Assembly (NCBI GenBank): GCA_963803185.1
Contig: CAWDMF010000023.1
Span: 14,034 to 78,033, forward strand
DNA length: 64,000 nt
DNA from: an uncultured Gammaproteobacteria bacterium
GTDB lineage: Bacteria > Pseudomonadota > Gammaproteobacteria > SZUA-229
Direction of reading: 5' to 3'
The number at the start of each line of letters is the position of its first letter. The stretch's first letter is position 1. The translations under genes and the position numbers were made by a program. Below, piece by piece: positions 26,961-35,022 of the stretch. The notes beneath the pieces are model-generated. The model was not told where the DNA came from. It did not search any database and saw only the letters and a list, made by a program, of their open reading frames with translations.

Positions 26961-26999
26961 AAAAACAAAAACCCGGCACGTTAAAAACGCACCGGGTTT
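26961..26999 (-). terminator. Rho-independent terminator after the lipoprotein gene
   Basis: On the minus strand, cccggugcg-uuuuuaa-cgugccggg forms a 9-bp stem including two G-U pairs, followed by tttttgttttt. Confidence 0.55.
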
Positions 27000-27019
27000 C
27001 AACAGTAGAAGCTTTGGTC

Positions 27020-28450
27020 TTAAGGTGTCACGGTAGGTGTAAAGACATGATCAAATGCCCCGGTCCAGTCAATACCGTTCGGATATACCGTGGTCAGGTA
27101 ATCGGCATTATTTAACTCAGCTGAGCGCCAGTCGAGCGGATCCGTACCCTGGTTTTCTTCCTGGCCGGCAAAACCGCCGATGAAATTATATACGGCATTT
27201 AACAGGTCGTTACAGTCATCACCGATAGCTGCGCATTTTGCTCCGGTAAAATAATCACTATCAAGGTTTAGCTCGGTAATGATTAGATCAAGCGAAGGAT
27301 TAAAAGGTAACAGCCAGCTGCCACCTGTTGCAGGTGTTGTACGATTACCTCGGTACTCGGATGTCAGCACCGATTTATTTATATATTCCCAGTCCATATC
27401 GTGCTCAAAGAAATAGACATCTTTTTTACTGAATAAATAATCGCCCAGGTGATTATTCAAGAAAACATTCAACACCAGTGGTAATGATATATTCTGAAAT
27501 TCAGCGATAGAGGCACCGTTACCCAGCGCATCAGAAACAGTGAATAAATGCAGATCAGGAATTTCAGTAATATTTGTCACCGGTAAAAATTGAGCTTTCA
27601 TATCAATCAAGCCACGGGCCTGGAAAACTTTTAACAGTGGATTGCCTGTCAGGTCTTTCACCAGCTGAATCCTAAAGCCATCTGCCCACAGGTTATTTTC
27701 GTCAAATTGCAGGAACATGTCTACCGTCTTCTGTTCGCTGGTAAAATTGAAATCCATGCGCATCATCGATGGATCTTCGCTATCATGGTTATCCCAGTTG
27801 ACACCAGTACCATCTATTATCATGCGGCCTTCGATATCACCATTCGCCAGTTCATTCCAGGAGATGTAAAACTGTGATTGCTCACCAGCAACGGGTGGCA
27901 GTGAACGGCTGTAATTATAATAAAGGCGAACGGTTACCTGGGTATCTGATTCGTCAGTGACACTGTAGTGGGTTGGTTCATCCGCTTCAAAATCTGCCGA
28001 ATTATTATCATTATCAGTTTCAATAATTTCGCCGTCATGCGGTACAAAACCGGAAACGTCAATTAATAAATCAGCAATACAGGTCCAGGTTGCCATGGTT
28101 GAAATCATAAATTTACTGGTTTCATATCCATTGCGGAAAGGATCGTCTTCATCTTCATTACCCAGATATGCACAGGGCTCACCCGTACCTGCCTTCGCCA
28201 TTTGTATTGACTGGCTTACCGTGGTCATGGCATTACTGGTTTGAGCCGCTTGTGTAACCGAAGCTGTTTGTCCGCCCGTCAGACTTGCAGGAATATCCAG
28301 AGCAAGTGTCGGATTACTGGCAGCAGAAGTGCCGCTGCTATCGCCATCGCAGGCTACAAGTAAACTGCTCAATAGCACTGCTGTAACAGCCAGTTTCGAT
28401 TTGAAATCCAGCCGGTTAAATATGTTCAATCGGATATTGTGGTTATTCAT
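27020..28450 (-). CDS. Lipoprotein of unknown function (476 aa)
   Basis: Lipobox LLVAC, SD GGAGAA, and no family that I can recognise. A copy of the locus-specific bipartite motif lies upstream. Confidence 0.6.
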   Translation of the reverse strand: MNNHNIRLNIFNRLDFKSKLAVTAVLLSSLLVACDGDSSGTSAASNPTLALDIPASLTGGQTASVTQAAQTSNAMTTVSQSIQMAKAGTGEPCAYLGNEDEDDPFRNGYETSKFMISTMATWTCIADLLIDVSGFVPHDGEIIETDNDNNSADFEADEPTHYSVTDESDTQVTVRLYYNYSRSLPPVAGEQSQFYISWNELANGDIEGRMIIDGTGVNWDNHDSEDPSMMRMDFNFTSEQKTVDMFLQFDENNLWADGFRIQLVKDLTGNPLLKVFQARGLIDMKAQFLPVTNITEIPDLHLFTVSDALGNGASIAEFQNISLPLVLNVFLNNHLGDYLFSKKDVYFFEHDMDWEYINKSVLTSEYRGNRTTPATGGSWLLPFNPSLDLIITELNLDSDYFTGAKCAAIGDDCNDLLNAVYNFIGGFAGQEENQGTDPLDWRSAELNNADYLTTVYPNGIDWTGAFDHVFTPTVTP

Positions 28451-28531: not shown

Positions 28532-28567
28532 ATTAAGAGACGGGTAATACAGCAGCATTTGAAAATT
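28532..28567 (-). promoter_or_regulatory. Bipartite motif copy 1 (AATTTTCAAAT-N15-GTCTCTTAAT), upstream of the lipoprotein gene
   Basis: The minus-strand reading is aattttcaaat gctgctgtattaccc gtctcttaat, about 80 nt upstream of the ATG at 28450. Confidence 0.55.
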
Positions 28568-28593
28568 ATTATGCATAAAAATAAGATAAATTT

Positions 28594-28630
28594 AATTTTC
28601 AAATAAAACAGTTCTGTGTGTCTCTTTAAT
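28594..28630 (+). promoter_or_regulatory. Bipartite motif copy 2, immediately upstream of the M48/TPR gene
   Basis: aattttcaaat aaaacagttctgtgt gtctctttaat, ending 2 nt before the ATG at 28633. Confidence 0.55.
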
Positions 28631-28632
28631 AT

Positions 28633-30624
28633 ATGAGACTTACAACGGCTTTATTTAATGATATGAAAAACCATATGAAACAGTTGTTTACAATCGGCGG
28701 CAGGCTTTTTCTCATGTTACTGTGCTTTAGCGCTGCAAGTCATAAGGTTGTTTATGCTGATCAGGTTTCCCTGATTCCGCCTGCCGATCCGAAACAGTCG
28801 ATTACTTACTGGAAAAAATATACCCTGGCGGACAGCAGCCCGTTAGTTCAGCACTCACAACAGGTTTTTTCGGTATTGCTGCGCGCATGGGACCAGTCAC
28901 GTATCGAACCGGGTCTGTTTGTTGTTGAATCAGAAGCCGGAGCATGGGCAGCTTCGCTGGCTGATGGAAATATTTTATTAAGTAAGCAGGCTATAGAAAC
29001 CAGCTTTTCCTTTGGTCGCCAGCGCGGTGAACATTTGCTGGCATTTATACTGGCACATGAACTGGCGCATCAGCGAGCTGATGATTTATGGCATCAGCGT
29101 TTCTTCCGGATGATTGGTAAACATTCTGCCGAATCCCGTAAGAAAATGATGGCAGGACTGGAACTGGATGCAGACATGTTAAACCAGATGGAGCAGAAAG
29201 AAGCTCAGGCTGACCATGACGGGCTTGTCTTAATGGCCAGCGTTGGCTTTGACCCGCACCAGGTAGTTGGCGACCAGCTTGCAGAGCAGAATGATGGCGA
29301 TAGAGACTTTTTCACCTTATGGGTTGAAAATATCTGGCATCAGGGCTGTGTAGAAAGCAATACAGACAACAGTAATTATGATGCCTGCGAACAGGCAATG
29401 GCACGGGCATTAAGAACCCAGGCACAACTTAAAACAGTCGCAACACAGTCCATGCTTTACGAACTGGGTATCCAGTCATTTGTAGCCGGAAACTATCAAC
29501 AGGCAAGAGAATACTTCACTATCTATGGGCGAGATTATCCCGGCAGGGCAATCATCTCAGCTATAGGTTTAAGCTATTTTGCTCAGGCGCAGGGTATCCA
29601 GAAACAAATCAATGAACTTGCCGCCAGCACCGGTGAAAATCAGCAGGCAAAATCACAGCTGTTTGATTTTTACTACCCGATGATTCTTGATGCACAAGTT
29701 AACGGTAGTAATTCAGCATCATCAGACAATAAACGCGCCAGTGCAACAGCGCTGATTGCCGAGTTAAAGAAACAAAAAGCTAAATTACTAGACCAGGGTA
29801 TCAGTCAGTTTGAAAAGGCCATTCGGCTGGCGCCGGATTATCAGCAAACCTACCTGTTGCTGGCTTCAGCACACCTGCTGGCCAATAATTCGTATCGAGT
29901 TCGCGGTGTACTGCAGGGTCAGTATTTACCAAAATTCGGTGATGACAGCGGGGCAAACATGCTGCTGGCGTTGACAGCGGCAATTGAAGGCAAGACAACT
30001 CAGGCAATTGCACAGCTAAGCGAGCTGACGGAAAAAATCAAAAATAGCAAAGCAGTTTCATCATTACCGGATAATGTGCTGGCTTACAGCGCTTTTTATA
30101 ACCTTGCTGAATTATATAGGGCAACGGGTAAAACACAGCAGGCGAAAAAAGTCTGGAGGGATCTTGCTCAATATTCCGGAAAAAACGGCGATACACTATT
30201 ATTCCGCCTGGCAATAAACCGTATCAACAAAAATGCTACGCTATCGACAAAACAGTTAACACAGGCACCATTAATCAATGGCAAAAGGCTGGGTGACAAA
30301 ATCCAGTTTGAAAAACAGCCGTCCGACTTATGGATAGACGGCGAGCGCTATCATATAAGCACAGTTAAAAACACACGTTATATCACACAGGATGACGGTA
30401 CACTCATCAGTGCCTGGCAAAACGATACCATATCTTCGGCCAGCCAGATAAGCGGTAAGCTAAGCATTGGTGATTTTGCAGACCGTCCATTCAAAACGCT
30501 GGGCATTCCTGATCGTCGCTTAAACATGACATCAGGCGAGTACCTGGCTTATGACAATTACGGCCTGGCCGTTCGAATCAGTAATAATCAGGTAAAAGGG
30601 TGGTTTTTATATGATGCTCAGTAA
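28633..30624 (+). CDS. BepA-like periplasmic M48 zinc metalloprotease with TPR repeats
   Basis: A signal peptide, HELAH (HExxH) followed by ...EAQADHDGLVLMASVGFDP, and then TPR-like helical repeats. The start may be an internal ATG at 28663 or 28675. Confidence 0.7.
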   Translation: MRLTTALFNDMKNHMKQLFTIGGRLFLMLLCFSAASHKVVYADQVSLIPPADPKQSITYWKKYTLADSSPLVQHSQQVFSVLLRAWDQSRIEPGLFVVESEAGAWAASLADGNILLSKQAIETSFSFGRQRGEHLLAFILAHELAHQRADDLWHQRFFRMIGKHSAESRKKMMAGLELDADMLNQMEQKEAQADHDGLVLMASVGFDPHQVVGDQLAEQNDGDRDFFTLWVENIWHQGCVESNTDNSNYDACEQAMARALRTQAQLKTVATQSMLYELGIQSFVAGNYQQAREYFTIYGRDYPGRAIISAIGLSYFAQAQGIQKQINELAASTGENQQAKSQLFDFYYPMILDAQVNGSNSASSDNKRASATALIAELKKQKAKLLDQGISQFEKAIRLAPDYQQTYLLLASAHLLANNSYRVRGVLQGQYLPKFGDDSGANMLLALTAAIEGKTTQAIAQLSELTEKIKNSKAVSSLPDNVLAYSAFYNLAELYRATGKTQQAKKVWRDLAQYSGKNGDTLLFRLAINRINKNATLSTKQLTQAPLINGKRLGDKIQFEKQPSDLWIDGERYHISTVKNTRYITQDDGTLISAWQNDTISSASQISGKLSIGDFADRPFKTLGIPDRRLNMTSGEYLAYDNYGLAVRISNNQVKGWFLYDAQ

Positions 30625-30687: not shown

Positions 30688-31629
30688 TTGCCCTTATCAG
30701 CCAATCCGCCGGTCAGTACTTCACAGCGCAACAGTGAAAATATCGAGCTCGCAAAAAAAGCGGCAAATAATGACGCGCAAGCACGAATAGAGGTTAATGA
30801 TTTAATTGCCCCCATAATCCAGTACCAGACAAACCGGTTCTGTAAACGGTTTTGCAAAGAAAACAGCGCCCATTATAAATGCACATTAAAACCGCCGCTT
30901 GGCTCGCCGCCTGCCGATGCCAGTTTATGCGAATGGGGTAACGGCTGTTACACATGGATGCTGGAAGATTTAAGCAGCAGCAAACGGCTGTTGAAATATC
31001 AGGCAAAAAACAATGCAACATTATTTGATTACTGTTATGTCATCGCCAATTCACTGCCATTTTATGAACGCTGGAAAGACTGGCGTTTTGCTCGAAAAAA
31101 TTATGTTCCAAGTTATATTCAGTCGCTGGGTAAAGCAGCTGTCTCTGTTTTTTATGGCCTGCAATCGCAGCACAGCATTGAACAAATCAGTCAGGCTTCA
31201 GCGCAAACTGTCCTGGAAAGTACCGAACTTAGCCGAAACATCATTCGTTTACTAAGCTCAAGGAGCAAGTTGCATCTCCTGAACCGGCCACACAGTGTTT
31301 CGTTCACACAGGATAATGATGTTGCCGAAGATGTATGGCAAGGGCCGTCAAATATCGAGTCAGAAACAGCAAGCCATGATGAAGCAATAGAGTTACGGGA
31401 AGATAAACAGAAACTGAAGAAAGCGTGGCACGAATTATCGGCTGTTGAACAATTTGTAATTGAAGCCCTTGTTATTGAAGAACAGGAGGCACAAATTGTT
31501 TTAGCGGCACTAAGAACATTAAACCTGAGCATTAAACAGGGGGTTCCTGCAGGTGAGACTGATCGACAGCAATTATATTATTTCCGCAGAAAAACGCTGG
31601 CAAAACTGAATGCCTTGATGAAGAAATGA
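30688..31629 (+). CDS. Atypical ECF-like sigma-70 family factor with a Cys-rich insertion
   Basis: The region-4-like C-terminus is LSAVEQFVIEALVIEEQEAQIVLAAL...QLYYFRRKTLAKLNAL. The region-2-like N-terminus is split by CKRFCKENSAHYKCTLKPPLGSPPADASLCEWGNGC. A zf-HC2 anti-sigma gene follows. The only in-frame start candidates are TTG at 30688 and CTG at 30670. Confidence 0.55.
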   Translation: MPLSANPPVSTSQRNSENIELAKKAANNDAQARIEVNDLIAPIIQYQTNRFCKRFCKENSAHYKCTLKPPLGSPPADASLCEWGNGCYTWMLEDLSSSKRLLKYQAKNNATLFDYCYVIANSLPFYERWKDWRFARKNYVPSYIQSLGKAAVSVFYGLQSQHSIEQISQASAQTVLESTELSRNIIRLLSSRSKLHLLNRPHSVSFTQDNDVAEDVWQGPSNIESETASHDEAIELREDKQKLKKAWHELSAVEQFVIEALVIEEQEAQIVLAALRTLNLSIKQGVPAGETDRQQLYYFRRKTLAKLNALMKK

Positions 31630-31646: not shown

Positions 31647-31682
31647 AATTTTCAAATATTTTTACAGTTGTTGTCTCTTAAT
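31647..31682 (+). promoter_or_regulatory. Bipartite motif copy 3, immediately upstream of the anti-sigma gene
   Basis: aattttcaaat atttttacagttgtt gtctcttaat, ending 4 nt before the ATG at 31687. Confidence 0.55.
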
Positions 31683-31686
31683 CAAC

Positions 31687-32685
31687 ATGAACAGCAAAGG
31701 TAATACTATGACGTCTCAGCATATCGATAATGACACTTTAAGTCTGTTTGTAAAAATGACCTTATATCCGCACGATCACAGCATGAACAGTTCGCAATAT
31801 CATGCGGTACTCGATCACCTTGCCCATTGCGAAGAATGCCGGGACCAGGTAAGCATAATCACCACCCTGCATAAAGAATGGCAGCAGATGGATATCCATG
31901 CCGATCTCAGTGATGAAAAGCAACAGCTAATCTGTGATTACCTGGATGGAAATTTAACTGCAGAAGAGGCCAGCAAAACTAAAAAGCTGATTAACAGTCA
32001 CCCTGATGCAATGAAAGCGGCATTACATTACAGCAGCCATGCTCAGTCCATGAAAGCACAATTAACTGACAACCAGCAATCAGTTTCAAGCGCACAATCT
32101 GCGAACAAAACCAGTGATCAAAGCTTTGTTCCCCACCTGACATCATTCGTAAAACGTTTATTCAGCTTTCAATCACCACTGGTTTACACCATGACTGCGA
32201 CCGCGGCTGTTTTTGTTGCGGTACTGTTATTTGTGCAATCGACTGAAATTAATCAAACCATGATTGCAAGTTACCAGGATAACCCAACGATTCAGTTTAC
32301 AGACAAAAACAAATTGCCGGGCATTGGTTTTTTCGCTAAATCGATGGATTCTTCAAAGTCTTTTGAGAATGTTAATATTGAACTGATTTCAGAAAACAGG
32401 ATAAAAATATCATGGCCGGCAGTTGCTGGCGCTGAACTTTATAAAATGCGAATCCAGGTTTTTAATCAGGGCAAGAAAACTGTTTTAAAAGAGAAAACAA
32501 CCCATACCAATCACACCACCTTTGAATTAAGTCAAGAGCTTCCTGTAGTAAAACAGGACAAGCATAATAAACGTTACGAATGGGTGTTATATGGCAATAC
32601 AGAAGATGACCGTATGTTTTATGCTTCTGGAGGTTTTGTTGTAGACCAGGTTCATGCTAATTCTGACTGGGAAGCCGGCTGGTAA
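31687..32685 (+). CDS. Zinc-finger (zf-HC2/ZAS-type) transmembrane anti-sigma factor with an extracytoplasmic beta-rich domain
   Basis: H-x3-C-x2-C in DHLAHCEEC; a single TM (LVYTMTATAAVFVAVLLFV); a C-terminal FN3-like segment (ISWPAVAGAELYKMRIQVF...). Confidence 0.7.
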   Translation: MNSKGNTMTSQHIDNDTLSLFVKMTLYPHDHSMNSSQYHAVLDHLAHCEECRDQVSIITTLHKEWQQMDIHADLSDEKQQLICDYLDGNLTAEEASKTKKLINSHPDAMKAALHYSSHAQSMKAQLTDNQQSVSSAQSANKTSDQSFVPHLTSFVKRLFSFQSPLVYTMTATAAVFVAVLLFVQSTEINQTMIASYQDNPTIQFTDKNKLPGIGFFAKSMDSSKSFENVNIELISENRIKISWPAVAGAELYKMRIQVFNQGKKTVLKEKTTHTNHTTFELSQELPVVKQDKHNKRYEWVLYGNTEDDRMFYASGGFVVDQVHANSDWEAGW

Positions 32686-32705: not shown

Positions 32706-33758
32706 ATGCTTAATACAGATATTACATACCTTGCCGGAATAAAAAGATATTGCAGAATCGCAATGCTGGTCTCACTTGGCATTTTCTGCATGTTCTCGAG
32801 TAATGCTTATGCTGCTGATAGTCGGGGCATTGCTATACAGCCAATAGACAAGTCGGCAAAGCCGGCAGCCACAAACGGCATTTATCGTGCGCTTGTTATC
32901 GGAAATAATGACTACATGGATGAGAAAGGTAAATGGAAGTCACTAAGTACTGCGGTTGCTGATGCAAGGGCGGTTGCTGACCTGCTTAAGAAGCAGTACG
33001 GCTTTACTGATATTAAGCTGCTTGAAAATGCTACTCGGCGCGATGTGCTGATCGCACTGGAAGATCTGGGCAGAAAATCCTTAAAAAATGATAATGTTTT
33101 AATCTATTATGCCGGTCATGGTTTTCTTGACGATGAGACCAATAAAGGCTTCTGGGTTCCGGTTGATGCCAGCGGCAGTGACCATACAACGTTTTTACGT
33201 AATTCTACTATTCGAGACGAAGTTTCAGGCATCGCTGCTCGTGTGAAACACACCTTACTTATTTCTGATTCATGTTTTAGCGGTTCTTTATTAAGAACTG
33301 CATCACGTGGAATATCAGAATCTGAATACACCGAAAAATATTTCAAGAAAGTATCAAGCAAGAAAAGTGTGCAAATAATGGCAGCCGGCGGATTTGAGTT
33401 TGTTGACGATGATTACCGCGATTCAGGTCATTCGCCTTTTACTTATTTCCTGCTGAATGAATTGAAAACTAATGACAGCCCGATGTTTACCGTTAGCCAG
33501 CTTTCCGGAAATGTTGAACGTGCAGTTGCAAATAATGTTGAACAGGTCCCAGAAAGCGGCGTATTGCAAGGCGCCGGCGATGAATTAGGTGAATTCATTT
33601 TTATTAAACTGGATGTTGCCGTCGAAGGCATCGATCCTGAAAAAGTAAAAGTTGAGGTCAATGTCGTGCCCGCAGATAAGACGCAAACAGACAATGCAAT
33701 AAAAGTTAGAAAACAATCAGACAAACAAATCAAAGTTGTGCCGATACCAACCTTGTAG
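32706..33758 (+). CDS. Secreted caspase-family (peptidase C14) protease
   Basis: Signal ...SSNAYA; YRALVIGNNDY; catalytic His in IYYAGHG and Cys in LISDSCFSG; a ~90-aa C-terminal tail. Confidence 0.85.
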   Translation: MLNTDITYLAGIKRYCRIAMLVSLGIFCMFSSNAYAADSRGIAIQPIDKSAKPAATNGIYRALVIGNNDYMDEKGKWKSLSTAVADARAVADLLKKQYGFTDIKLLENATRRDVLIALEDLGRKSLKNDNVLIYYAGHGFLDDETNKGFWVPVDASGSDHTTFLRNSTIRDEVSGIAARVKHTLLISDSCFSGSLLRTASRGISESEYTEKYFKKVSSKKSVQIMAAGGFEFVDDDYRDSGHSPFTYFLLNELKTNDSPMFTVSQLSGNVERAVANNVEQVPESGVLQGAGDELGEFIFIKLDVAVEGIDPEKVKVEVNVVPADKTQTDNAIKVRKQSDKQIKVVPIPTL

Positions 33759-33770
33759 AAGGATAGCATT

Positions 33771-34502
33771 ATGTTAGCAAGAAATATTTCACTCGTAATA
33801 TTAGCTTTATCACTCAGCATAAGTCATCTACATGCCGAGCAAAGCCTGACTTTAGGTGCAAAATTACTGGGCGCAGGCTGGAATGGAGACAATGGTACCG
33901 GCGGCAGCGAGTTTGGAAGTGACAAGGGTGGCCAGTTCGGTGTAAATATATCTTACAAAATCGGCCGTTTCTACACTGGCTTAAATCTACAACGCGGCAA
34001 ATATGAATTTACCGGCAATGCGCCAGACAAGTTTATACAACCCAATCTCTTTGTGCCTGACGGGCGCCTGTCCAGCTCAAATGTTACCATCCAGCAATCT
34101 GATTTTGATTTACTGGCGGGTTATTATTTCTGGGATCAGGTGTCATTGTTTATTGATGTTAAAGCGGTAACTAACGACTGGCTCGATCAATCTTACAGCC
34201 AGACTTTTGTTGGACTCGGTCTGGGCATATCAGGTTACATACCACTGAATAACCGCTGGACACTTTTTGGCTCTTTCGGTTTTATCGGCGGTGGTGATAT
34301 AAAAGATAATAATGATAACAAAGTAGGGGAAGGTAAAAGCTGGGCACTGGAAGCAGGTACGGTTTATACAATTAACGAACGGCACTTTATCAATGGCGGA
34401 CTAAAAACAAGAGAGTATGATTTTGAAGACCTGAACTCTATAAAGCAGAGTTATAACATTAATGCGTTGTTTATCGGCTATAACTACAGCTTCAGTTTAT
34501 AA
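33771..34502 (+). CDS. Putative outer-membrane beta-barrel protein
   Basis: A signal peptide (..SISHLHA), alternating amphipathic strands rich in G/Y/N, and an aromatic-rich C-terminus ...LFIGYNYSFSL. Confidence 0.5.
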   Translation: MLARNISLVILALSLSISHLHAEQSLTLGAKLLGAGWNGDNGTGGSEFGSDKGGQFGVNISYKIGRFYTGLNLQRGKYEFTGNAPDKFIQPNLFVPDGRLSSSNVTIQQSDFDLLAGYYFWDQVSLFIDVKAVTNDWLDQSYSQTFVGLGLGISGYIPLNNRWTLFGSFGFIGGGDIKDNNDNKVGEGKSWALEAGTVYTINERHFINGGLKTREYDFEDLNSIKQSYNINALFIGYNYSFSL

Positions 34503-34530
34503 CCGTTTTGTTTATCAAGTTGCAATAATC

Positions 34531-35022
34531 ATGCTGCATAAAGCTTTTTATTTTATCGTACTTTTGTTGTTAGCTACGGCATGTTCCTTATCCACTGAAA
34601 CCCATTCATCTCTCGCGTTGCAAACTATTCCAGTTGAGTTAACAACACATTTAGGTGACCAGCAGCAGTTTATCGACGGTGATGAAATTCAGTTTTTATT
34701 AAGCCTTGGCAGTGATGCATACATCTATATGTATTACATCGATGCCGCTAATAAGATTACAAAAATACTGCCAAATGAAAACCAGCACAGTCATTTTTAT
34801 TCGGCCGGCTATTTTCTGACCGTACCAAATTACGAAAATCATTACCGGTTTATAATCAGCAGGCCATACGGCGAAGAAACCATTTGGATATTTGCAAGCG
34901 ACCAGTCGATTAATATCAACGAGACGAACATTGGAATAGACGAGATAAGAAATAATATAAAAAACGCATCAAGACTTGCATATGGTGAATATGCGATGAA
35001 AATAGTGACGCGTGATAGATAG
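34531..35022 (+). CDS. DUF4384-like lipoprotein
   Basis: ATG at 34531 with lipobox LLATAC. The core GDEIQFLLSLGSDAYIYMYYIDAANKITKILPN...ETIWIFASDQ resembles DUF4384. Confidence 0.6.
   Translation: MLHKAFYFIVLLLLATACSLSTETHSSLALQTIPVELTTHLGDQQQFIDGDEIQFLLSLGSDAYIYMYYIDAANKITKILPNENQHSHFYSAGYFLTVPNYENHYRFIISRPYGEETIWIFASDQSININETNIGIDEIRNNIKNASRLAYGEYAMKIVTRDR

What the first reader, a model, noticed from the sequence alone, without database searches (positions are those of the whole stretch)
28532..28630. Locus-specific bipartite motif AATTTTCAAAT-N15-GTCTCTTAAT present three times, candidate promoter of the local sigma factor
An 11-mer, an exactly 15-nt spacer and a 10-mer occur at three places.
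- 28532..28567 on the minus strand, upstream of the divergent lipoprotein gene.
- 28594..28630 on the plus strand, upstream of the M48/TPR gene and therefore of the sigma gene. This copy has one extra T in the second box.
- 31647..31682 on the plus strand, upstream of the anti-sigma/caspase/barrel/DUF4384 genes.
By eye I found neither box anywhere else in the 64 kb. Copies 1 and 2 are back to back, 26 nt apart, as expected for divergent promoters.
The spacing is about 16 nt between TTCAAA and GTCTCT. In copy 1 the second box is preceded by C, giving CGTCT. Both features resemble ECF-type -35/-10 geometry more than sigma-70 geometry.
In copies 2 and 3 the motif ends only 2 to 4 nt before the annotated ATG. 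Transcripts from these sites would therefore be leaderless or nearly so. Alternatively, the true start of the M48 gene is one of the downstream ATGs (28663 or 28675).
Basis: seen in the sequence. Interest (0 to 1): 0.72.

Follow-up and report, generated by a model that had tools for sequence, protein, structure and literature searches.

The report
Conserved promoter trio of hidden sigma factor
A two-box DNA motif (TTCAAAT, 15 bases, GTCT) sits in front of three transcription units of one envelope gene cluster and is kept at the same places in about 70 uncultured bacteria, so it is very probably the promoter read by an unannotated, highly divergent sigma-factor-like protein encoded in that cluster.

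Summary
AATTTTCAAAT-N15-GTCTCTT(T)AAT occurs three times in the window and nowhere else in 64 kb (0.01 expected by chance).

Comparative evidence supports the promoter reading. In 68 orthologous loci (35-71 % G+C, regulator identity down to about 40 %), TTCAAA-N16-GTCT lies at the same three positions in 88-98 % of loci. The spacing is fixed, the spacer is not conserved, and every site points at the gene downstream. In rearranged loci the motif follows the genes. Distant relatives of the regulator keep AAAT-N15-GTCT.

The local "sigma" has no Pfam or NCBIfam hit. Its AlphaFold model matches only sigma-70-family factors along its full length. Distant relatives reach Pfam Sigma70_r4, and a zf-HC2 anti-sigma gene follows it. 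It fails the operational definition of an ECF sigma because it has an extra middle domain and a Cys4 insert.

The "leaderless" idea is not supported. The ATGs next to the motif are not conserved, and the real starts are probably 28663 and 31708.

No transcription start has been mapped, and the regulon outside the locus is only partly tested.

Verdict: a well-supported, self-contained autoregulated sigma/anti-sigma promoter set for an undescribed sigma-like family. It is a new variant of a known kind.

The parts
28532..28567 (-). Promoter copy 1 (P_lipo). The -35-like box AATTTTCAAAT is at 28567-28557, the spacer at 28556-28542, and the -10-like box GTCTCTTAAT at 28541-28532. It drives the divergent lipoprotein gene through a leader of about 80 nt carrying a GGAG ribosome-binding site.
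   Evidence: The orthologous site is present in 43 of 44 loci that hold this region.
28594..28630 (+). Promoter copy 2 (P_m48). Box 1 is at 28594-28604, the spacer at 28605-28619, and GTCTCTTTAAT at 28620-28630. It drives the HExxH/TPR gene and the sigma-like gene behind it, giving inferred positive autoregulation.
   Evidence: The orthologous site is present in 53 of 54 loci.
31647..31682 (+). Promoter copy 3 (P_anti). Box 1 is at 31647-31657, the spacer at 31658-31672, and GTCTCTTAAT at 31673-31682. It lies in the 57-nt gap after the sigma-like gene and drives the anti-sigma, caspase, barrel and DUF4384 genes.
   Evidence: The orthologous site is present in 58 of 66 loci.
30688..31629 (+). 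Sigma-like regulator of 313 aa, with a TTG start preceded by AGGA. It has a sigma2-like N-terminal domain with an invariant Cys4 insert (C52, C56, C65, C81), a three-helix middle domain (about residues 149-191), a disordered linker, and a sigma4-like C-terminal HTH domain.
31708..32685 (+). Membrane anti-sigma factor with a zf-HC2 domain (Hx3Cx2C motif) and one transmembrane helix. The probable start is 31708, with a conserved AAAGG 7 nt upstream. The longest ORF starts at 31687.
   Evidence: (PF13490, 26 bits against a cut-off of 22.2).
28663..30624 (+). Secreted HExxH/TPR protein. The probable start is 28663 (homology to relatives begins at residue 11 of the long ORF). The longest ORF starts at 28633.
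27020..28450 (-). Lipoprotein of 476 aa (lipobox LLVAC) with no known domain. It is the single gene transcribed from copy 1.
26968..27000 (-). Intrinsic terminator-like hairpin (15-bp stem plus a T run) directly after the lipoprotein gene.
32706..33758 (+). Caspase-family (Peptidase_C14) protein with an N-terminal signal sequence.
   Evidence: (E = 2.4e-22).
33771..34502 (+). Putative outer-membrane beta-barrel protein of 243 aa with a signal peptide. It has no significant family hit.
   Evidence: Conserved in 47 loci.
34462..35022 (+). DUF4384 protein. The probable lipoprotein start is at 34534 (MLHKAF...LLATAC).
   Evidence: (E = 1.1e-16).

Best explanation
The three copies are most likely the core promoters (-35-like TTTTCAAAT, 15-nt spacer, -10-like GTCTCTT) recognised by RNA polymerase carrying the 313-aa sigma-like protein encoded in the same cluster.

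Inferred circuit. At rest, the membrane zf-HC2 anti-sigma factor holds the sigma-like protein. An envelope signal releases it, possibly through the co-encoded secreted HExxH/TPR protein or the caspase-family protease. The holoenzyme then fires three promoters:
- Copy 2 transcribes the HExxH/TPR gene and the sigma gene (positive feedback).
- Copy 3 transcribes the anti-sigma, caspase, barrel and DUF4384 genes (negative feedback plus output).
- Copy 1 transcribes the divergent lipoprotein gene, which ends at a strong terminator.

Transcripts are predicted to start about 10-14 nt after the G of GTCT. They would carry short leaders (about 20-30 nt for copies 2 and 3, about 80 nt for copy 1) and are not leaderless.

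Shown here: the motif, its conservation, geometry and orientation, the locus synteny, the sigma-like fold, and the anti-sigma domain.

Inferred: that this protein binds core polymerase and reads the motif, the start sites, the signal, and the role of the proteases.
For: (1) Three copies in the window against 0.01 expected. They are the only high-scoring sites in 64 kb with a matrix built from other genomes.

(2) Across 68 loci found through the sigma-like protein, the gene order lipoprotein(-) <> HExxH/TPR, sigma-like, anti-sigma, caspase, barrel, DUF4384 is conserved. TTCAAA-N16-GTCT with at most 1 mismatch is present before the anti-sigma gene in 58 of 66 loci, before the HExxH/TPR gene in 53 of 54, and before the lipoprotein gene in 43 of 44. 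Nearly all of these have a spacing of exactly 16. Background hits spread evenly over spacings of 15, 16 and 17.

(3) The spacer carries almost no information. The extra conserved positions are T-rich bases upstream, TTCAAAT, a T 5 nt before GTCT, and GTCTnnT.

(4) The A+T-rich box survives in loci with up to 71 % G+C. The gap between the divergent copies varies from 6 to 219 nt, so each copy is an independent unit.

(5) In rearranged loci (L060, L043, L025) the motif sits before the relocated genes.

(6) In a complete scan of 596 Gb with an 18-base version, the only stretches with more than one match are loci of this family. The roughly 75 other hits are single matches in unrelated taxa.

(7) Distant relatives of the regulator also have TTTTTCAAAT-N16-CGTCTAAAT, TATAAAT-N15-GTCTAAG or TCTAAAT-N15-GTCTAAG right after the regulator gene.

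(8) The regulator's model (pLDDT 77) matches only sigma-70-family proteins in the top 50 PDB hits, including SigB, sigma-S, sigma-32, sigma-28 and WhiG. Probability is about 1, E is down to 2.5e-4, and the alignments are full length.

(9) Distant family members reach Pfam Sigma70_r4 above the gathering score at the equivalent C-terminal domain.

(10) A zf-HC2 anti-sigma gene follows the regulator gene.

(11) Sigma factors of this type usually autoregulate and are co-encoded with their regulators and targets (PMC7826278).

(12) Sites lie as little as 26-35 nt before the conserved start codons. That leaves no room for a separate promoter downstream of the motif.
Against: - No transcription start, expression or binding data exist.
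- The window protein itself gets no Pfam, NCBIfam or PDB-sequence hit to sigma factors.
- The isolated N-terminal domain matches sigma region 2 only weakly. E is above 1, although 9 of the top 12 hits are sigma2 domains and the TM-score is up to 0.57 when normalised to sigmaE region 2.
- The middle domain of relatives hits HTH families (Sigma70_r4_2, GerE). A two-HTH DNA-binding activator is therefore not excluded.
- The -35-like box lacks the AAC core typical of ECF promoters (own knowledge).
Confidence: 0.8

Rival explanations
1. The motif is the operator of a conventional transcription factor. The 313-aa protein may itself act as a two-HTH activator or repressor rather than a sigma subunit, with one HTH domain binding each box. 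Transcription would then be carried out by the housekeeping sigma factor.
For: - In distant relatives the middle domain hits Sigma70_r4_2 or GerE-type HTH models, and the C-terminal domain is also an HTH.
- The sigma2 assignment of the N-terminal domain is formally inconclusive.
- No sequence model calls the protein a sigma factor.
Against: - The full-length fold matches are exclusively sigma factors.
- The partner is a zf-HC2 anti-sigma factor.
- The motif is asymmetric and always co-directional with the gene. It lies only 26-57 nt before many start codons, so there is no room for a separate -35/-10 promoter plus leader.
- No sigma-70-type promoter excess is seen in the region. TTCAAA and the TAAT after GTCT would be 20 nt apart, and the TAAT is not conserved.
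Confidence: 0.12
2. The sites are promoters, but they are read by a different alternative sigma factor encoded elsewhere in the genome, for example a general envelope-stress sigma. The local sigma-like protein would have another role.
For: - GTCT resembles the -10 element of RpoE/AlgU-type promoters (own knowledge).
- The whole-genome regulon could not be defined. One possible extra site lies on another contig of a related genome (L217).
Against: - The motif travels with the locus through very different lineages and G+C contents, and with rearranged gene orders.
- Distant relatives of the local regulator keep the motif core.
- In 596 Gb, multiple matches occur only at these loci.
- The -35-like box TTCAAAT does not fit GGAACTT of sigmaE (own knowledge).
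Confidence: 0.06
3. The copies are a short dispersed repeat, a remnant of a mobile element, or a chance similarity with no regulatory role.
For: The boxes are A+T-rich. Single exact matches to an 18-base version occur in many unrelated genomes at about chance frequency.
Against: - 0.01 copies are expected by chance in the window.
- Similarity is limited to two boxes with a free spacer.
- There are no other copies in 64 kb.
- The motif is conserved at three syntenic positions in 88-98 % of 68 loci.
- There is no Rfam match in the window.
Confidence: 0.02

Closest known systems
Autoregulated ECF (group 4) sigma / anti-sigma modules and their bipartite promoters, such as RpoE-RseA, SigW-RsiW and PvdS-type promoters
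   Same: - There are two short boxes separated by a fixed, non-conserved spacer, and the -10-like box contains GTC.
- The motif lies upstream of the operon that holds the sigma gene, and upstream of neighbouring envelope genes.
- A membrane anti-sigma factor with a zf-HC2 domain is encoded next to the regulator.
- The promoter can be predicted from upstream regions of orthologues, as described for ECFs (PMC7826278).
   Different: - The regulator fails the operational ECF definition. It has no Pfam sigma2 or sigma4 hit, and about 100 residues including a folded three-helix domain lie between the sigma2-like and sigma4-like parts.
- It carries an invariant Cys4 insert in the sigma2-like domain.
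- The -35-like box is TTCAAAT rather than an AAC-type box.
- The anti-sigma gene has its own copy of the promoter directly after the sigma gene.
Group 3 sigma factors (SigB, FliA/sigma-28, sigma-32, sigma-S, WhiG)
   Same: These are the best full-length structural matches. They share the three-part arrangement of sigma2, middle domain, linker and sigma4, and a similar length.
   Different: - No detectable sequence similarity.
- Their anti-sigma factors (FlgM, RsbW, RsiG) are unrelated to zf-HC2 proteins.
- Their promoter consensus sequences differ (own knowledge).
- In relatives, the middle domain looks like a second sigma4/GerE-type HTH rather than a Pfam sigma3.
Protease-controlled sigma modules, such as the type III-E CRISPR Craspase-Csx30-RpoE system
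   Same: A caspase-family protease is encoded together with a sigma factor and its inhibitor. This offers a precedent for proteolytic release of a sigma factor (bioRxiv 10.1101/2022.08.17.504292, listed).
   Different: - Here there is no CRISPR system or known defence gene besides a generic caspase hit.
- The caspase carries a signal sequence and is probably periplasmic.
- Nothing shows that it cleaves the anti-sigma factor.

Membership tests
Sigma-70 family (for the regulator inferred to read the motif) | C-terminal sigma4 helix-turn-helix domain | tested here: met
   Full-length Foldseek matches to sigma factors. Distant family members found with the family profile hit Pfam Sigma70_r4 above the gathering score at the equivalent position: P0229 29.3 bits and P0241 25.0 bits against a cut-off of 24.1. 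The window protein itself gets no Pfam hit.
Sigma-70 family (for the regulator inferred to read the motif) | N-terminal sigma2 domain fold | tested here: inconclusive
   The isolated domain model (pLDDT 80, pTM 0.72) gives 9 sigma region-2 structures among the top 12 PDB hits. The TM-score is up to 0.57 when normalised to sigmaE region 2, but every E-value is above 1. The full-length search gives probability of about 1.
Sigma-70 family (for the regulator inferred to read the motif) | Binds core RNA polymerase and directs promoter-specific initiation | not testable with these tools
   Needs biochemistry or genetics.
ECF (group 4) sigma factor, operational definition of PMC7826278 | Pfam sigma2 (PF04542) and sigma4 (PF04545/PF08281) hits present | tested here: not met
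   No such hits for the window protein at E <= 10. Only 1 of 25 family members has Sigma70_r4_2, at E = 0.093. Criteria are quoted.
ECF (group 4) sigma factor, operational definition of PMC7826278 | No sigma3 domain, and at most 50 residues between sigma2 and sigma4 | tested here: not met
   About 100 residues (about 135-234) separate the two domains. They include a confidently folded helical domain at 149-191 and a disordered linker at 202-230.
ECF (group 4) sigma factor, operational definition of PMC7826278 | Co-encoded anti-sigma factor with an anti-sigma domain | tested here: met
   The next gene has zf-HC2 (PF13490, 26 bits against a cut-off of 22.2) and one transmembrane helix. It is present in 61 of 68 loci.
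Alternative-sigma (ECF-like) bipartite promoter | Two conserved boxes with a spacer of fixed length and free sequence | tested here: met
   The spacing is 16 between TTCAAA and GTCT in nearly all syntenic sites. Spacer information is about 0.05-0.2 bits per position.
Alternative-sigma (ECF-like) bipartite promoter | Located upstream of, and co-directional with, the regulated genes, including the sigma gene's own operon | tested here: met
   All three window copies and the orthologous sites point at the downstream gene. Copy 2 precedes the HExxH/TPR-sigma operon.
Alternative-sigma (ECF-like) bipartite promoter | Transcription starts a few bases downstream of the -10 box and depends on the sigma factor | not testable with these tools
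   No transcript data are available.
Leaderless mRNA | Start codon at the transcription start, conserved at a fixed distance from the -10 box | tested here: not met
   The ATG next to the motif is absent in L002, L005 and L007, and is followed by TAA in L006. Downstream starts are conserved instead: an SD-like AAAGG plus ATG for the anti-sigma gene, and homology from residue 11 for the HExxH/TPR gene.
Dispersed repeat (REP/MITE-like) | Many copies in unrelated contexts, with similarity extending over the whole element | tested here: not met
   Only 3 sites in 64 kb. Identity is confined to the two boxes. The collection-wide scan shows multiple matches only at this locus.
Housekeeping sigma-70 promoter | TTGACA-like and TATAAT-like hexamers 16-18 nt apart | tested here: not met
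   The consensus scan finds no excess in the region: 23 sites against 19.9 expected. None coincides with the motif's geometry.

The most novel reading that the evidence does not exclude
The motif is the cognate promoter of a previously unrecognised clade of the sigma-70 superfamily. The clade has 136 representatives at 50 % identity among 1.84 billion proteins, and every member for which a source gives a name is annotated as hypothetical. Its members have an invariant Cys4 (metal or redox) insert in the sigma2-like domain and an extra HTH-like middle domain. The clade would run a self-contained envelope signalling module in which a periplasmic caspase-family protease, the HExxH/TPR protein, or both, release the sigma factor by cleaving the zf-HC2 anti-sigma factor. 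That would be a new route of regulated anti-sigma proteolysis.
Probability: 0.3. Interest if true: 0.8.

Novelty: new variant of a known kind. Interest (0 to 1): 0.58.

Why it matters
The result gives a ready-made, testable promoter-regulator pair for a protein family that no annotation pipeline recognises as a sigma factor. It shows that conserved promoter motifs, synteny and predicted structure together can reveal sigma-like regulators that profile models miss. The regulon appears compact: three promoters, seven genes and a conserved output of envelope proteins that includes a secreted caspase-family protease. That makes it an attractive system for studying bacterial caspase function and anti-sigma release. 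It could also serve as a source of orthogonal sigma/promoter parts. It corrects two probable start-codon calls in the window.

Tried and rejected
- Pfam, NCBIfam and PADLOC scans, and a PDB sequence-profile search of the sigma-like protein, gave no sigma hit. The only weak PDB hits were to cytochrome oxidase subunit VIb, through the Cys motif.
The FliA alignment was colinear with regions 2.2-3 but had E = 0.03 and probability below 2 %.
- L123, a match on another contig of a family genome, lies inside the alanine racemase coding sequence and was set aside as chance.
- Contigs of distant relatives were too short (1.5-2.9 kb) to see their whole loci.
- PDB sequence searches of the HExxH/TPR and anti-sigma proteins found nothing, so the 'M48' label could not be confirmed.
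- Rfam and tRNA scans of the window were empty.
- Literature searches for DUF4384, caspase, metacaspase or orthocaspase together with sigma or anti-sigma found no description of this locus or family.
- The leaderless-mRNA idea was rejected on comparative grounds.

Full report
**1. Observation**

The window contains AATTTTCAAAT-N15-GTCTCTTAAT at 28532-28567 (-) and 31647-31682 (+), both exact. A third copy at 28594-28630 (+) has one extra T in the second box. Shuffles give 0.01 matches. Each box on its own occurs nowhere else in the 64 kb.

An alignment of the three copies shows identity only in TAATTTTCAAAT and GTCTCTT(T)AAT. The spacer and the flanks differ. This is therefore a two-box motif and not a repeated element.

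- The gap between copies 1 and 2 is 26 nt.
- Copy 1 reads CGTCT.
- Copies 2 and 3 end 2 and 4 nt before the first ATG.

**2. Gene context**

The genes around the motif are as follows:
- 27020-28450 (-): a 476-aa lipoprotein with no known domain, followed by a strong terminator-like hairpin at 27000-26968.
- 28633-30624 (+): a secreted TPR protein with an HExxH motif. It gets no Pfam M48 hit.
- 31687-32685 (+): a zf-HC2 membrane anti-sigma factor.
- Then a Peptidase_C14 caspase-family protein with a signal sequence, a barrel-like protein and a DUF4384 protein.

**3. Comparative test of the motif**

The 313-aa protein has 493 homologues, nearly all from uncultured Gammaproteobacteria. Every one for which a source gives a name is called hypothetical, and none has a Pfam domain. 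A scan of one genome per species found 68 loci, with regulator identity of 36-66 %. A tblastn search shows the same gene order in most of them.

A search for TTCAAA-N15-17-GTCT with at most one mismatch gave these results:

| Position | Loci with a site / loci holding the region |
|---|---|
| Between the sigma-like and anti-sigma genes | 58 / 66 |
| Before the HExxH/TPR gene | 53 / 54 |
| Before the lipoprotein gene | 43 / 44 |

Nearly all syntenic sites have a spacing of exactly 16. Non-syntenic one-mismatch hits are spread over spacings of 15, 16 and 17 (51, 49 and 29 hits), as chance predicts.

Other features point the same way:
- Outside the anchored bases, the conserved positions are T-rich bases just upstream, the T of TTCAAAT, a T 5 nt before GTCT, and the T of GTCTnnT. 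The spacer is essentially free.
- The loci range from 35 to 71 % G+C, and the A+T-rich box persists in all of them.
- The distance between the two divergent copies varies from 6 to 219 nt, so the copies are independent units.
- In rearranged loci (L060, L043, L025) perfect sites precede the relocated genes.

**4. Specificity**

A weight matrix built from 153 sites of other genomes scores the window's three sites 29-33. The next best score is 6.3, and shuffles reach at most 15.5.

A complete scan of 596 Gb with TTTTTCAAATA-N14-GTCTCTT returned 86 stretches. All four stretches with more than one match are loci of this family. Five further family loci have one match each. The rest are single matches in unrelated taxa, which is about the chance level.

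Two matches in family genomes lie outside the locus:
- One is inside the alr coding sequence and is probably chance.
- The other (L217) is intergenic, about 95 nt before a gene that is cut by the contig end. It may be a fourth target.

The regulon therefore looks largely confined to the locus. It could not be defined genome-wide.

**5. Is the regulator a sigma factor?**

Sequence models fail on the window protein. This holds for Pfam, NCBIfam, the PDB profile search, and hhalign against FliA and RpoE.

An AlphaFold model built from 25 family members has pLDDT 77. It shows:
- an N-terminal helical domain interrupted by a low-confidence insert that carries four invariant cysteines (C52, C56, C65, C81);
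- a three-helix middle domain;
- a disordered linker;
- a four-helix C-terminal domain.

All top 50 Foldseek hits in the PDB are sigma-70-family proteins, aligned over the full length. They include SigB, sigma-S, sigma-32, sigma-28 and WhiG, with probability of about 1 and E down to 2.5e-4.

The N-terminal domain modelled alone (pTM 0.72) gives sigma region-2 structures as 9 of its top 12 hits. The TM-score is up to 0.57 relative to sigmaE region 2, but every E-value is above 1, so this test is formally inconclusive.

An exhaustive profile search found only 136 representatives among 1.84 billion proteins. The distant tier supplies a transitive sequence link. Several of these proteins hit Pfam Sigma70_r4 above the gathering score at the equivalent C-terminal position. 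Their middle domain hits Sigma70_r4_2 or GerE.

Together with the adjacent zf-HC2 anti-sigma gene, these results support a very divergent sigma-70-family protein. It is not an ECF sigma by the operational definition, which requires Pfam sigma2 and sigma4 hits, no sigma3, and at most 50 residues between the two domains (PMC7826278).

**6. Distant clade**

Short contigs of three distant relatives show the following motifs directly after the regulator gene:
- TTTTTCAAAT-N16-CGTCTAAAT
- TATAAAT-N15-GTCTAAG
- TCTAAAT-N15-GTCTAAG

The core AAAT-N15-GTCT therefore accompanies the protein family well beyond the orthologous loci.

**7. Leaders and start codons**

The ATGs that abut copies 2 and 3 are not conserved. 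L002, L005 and L007 lack the ATG after the anti-sigma promoter. In L006 the ATG after the HExxH/TPR promoter is followed by TAA.

The conserved features lie further downstream:
- For the anti-sigma gene, an AAAGG followed 7 nt later by ATG (window 31708).
- For the HExxH/TPR gene, homology that begins at residue 11 of the long ORF (window 28663).

Distances from GTCT to the extrapolated starts vary between loci, from 26-93 nt for the anti-sigma gene and more widely for the others. Variable leaders behind a fixed promoter are the expected pattern. Leaderless transcripts are therefore not supported.

**8. Mechanism**

The best reading is an autoregulated sigma/anti-sigma circuit with three cognate promoters:
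- one for the HExxH/TPR-sigma operon (positive feedback);
- one for the anti-sigma, caspase, barrel and DUF4384 operon (negative feedback and output);
- one for the divergent lipoprotein gene.

This matches the general behaviour of such sigma factors, which usually autoregulate and are co-encoded with their regulators and targets (PMC7826278). Every encoded output protein has a signal sequence or lipobox, so the module acts in the cell envelope. The identity of the signal and any role of the two putative proteases in releasing the sigma factor are speculation.

**9. Rivals**

- A conventional operator for a two-HTH transcription factor is the main rival (0.12). Against it stand the exclusive sigma fold matches, the anti-sigma partner, the asymmetric and co-directional geometry, and the lack of room for a separate promoter.
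- Recognition by a sigma factor encoded elsewhere (0.06) does not explain why the motif travels with the locus and with the protein family.
- A dispersed repeat or chance similarity (0.02) is excluded by the comparative data.

**10. Novelty**

Full-text searches found no description of this locus, protein family or motif. The ECF reclassification paper mentions no group with caspase, M48 or DUF4384 context in its main text. Its retrieval criteria would also have excluded this protein.

The principle of an autoregulated alternative sigma factor with a bipartite promoter is well known. What is new is a sigma-like family invisible to standard models, with an unusual architecture and a conserved caspase-containing envelope regulon. 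I rate it as a new variant of a known kind, with interest 0.58.

Noticed in passing
window 30841-30930 (residues 52-81 of the 313-aa protein): Four invariant cysteines (C52-x3-C56, C65, C81, within RFCKRFCxEN...C...CEWGN) lie in a low-confidence insert of the sigma2-like domain. They may form a metal- or redox-sensing site. The only weak PDB sequence hits of the family profile were to cytochrome oxidase subunit VIb, through this motif.
   Followed up: partly
L217 2807-2838 (+) (CBDULX010000288.1, same MAG as L018): A perfect TTTTTCAAATA-N14-GTCTCTT site lies in an intergenic region on a different contig of a family genome. It is about 95 nt upstream of an ATG with a good ribosome-binding site at the contig end, so it may be a fourth regulon target. 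A tandem array of about 10-nt units (CCGACCTCCGACTT...) lies directly upstream.
   Followed up: partly
window 28633/28663, 31687/31708, 34462/34534: The longest-ORF start codons of three genes are probably wrong. Comparative data favour 28663 for the HExxH/TPR gene and 31708 for the anti-sigma gene. The DUF4384 ORF overlaps the barrel gene by 41 nt and more likely starts at the lipoprotein signal MLHKAF (34534).
   Followed up: partly
window 26968-27000 (-): A very strong terminator-like hairpin (15-bp stem with 7 G-C pairs, then a T run) lies directly after the lipoprotein gene. It isolates that gene from the DoxX-like and lipase genes downstream.
   Followed up: no
P0210 residues 123-174; P0229 and P0241 residues about 131-182: In distant relatives the middle domain, between the sigma2-like and sigma4-like parts, hits Sigma70_r4_2 (34.5 bits, full length) or GerE. 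This suggests a duplicated sigma4/LuxR-type HTH in place of a canonical sigma3 domain.
   Followed up: no
L036, L039, L040, L047, L061: Complete or partial copies of the locus, with the motif, occur on contigs binned as Desulfobacteraceae/Desulfosarcinaceae, Nitrospira/Nitrospirota and Manganitrophaceae. This is either horizontal transfer of the whole module or binning error.
   Followed up: no
L068 (Olavius algarvensis Gamma 3 endosymbiont) and L024: In these two loci about 2.3-2.4 kb is inserted between the divergent lipoprotein and HExxH/TPR promoters. In L068 the sigma-like match stops at residue 149, which may indicate a truncated or disrupted gene.
   Followed up: no
L255 about 835-870: In a distant relative the sigma-like gene itself is preceded by a good sigma-70-type promoter (TTGACT-N17-TATCAT), while the family motif precedes only the next gene. 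Autoregulation may therefore not be universal in the wider family.
   Followed up: no
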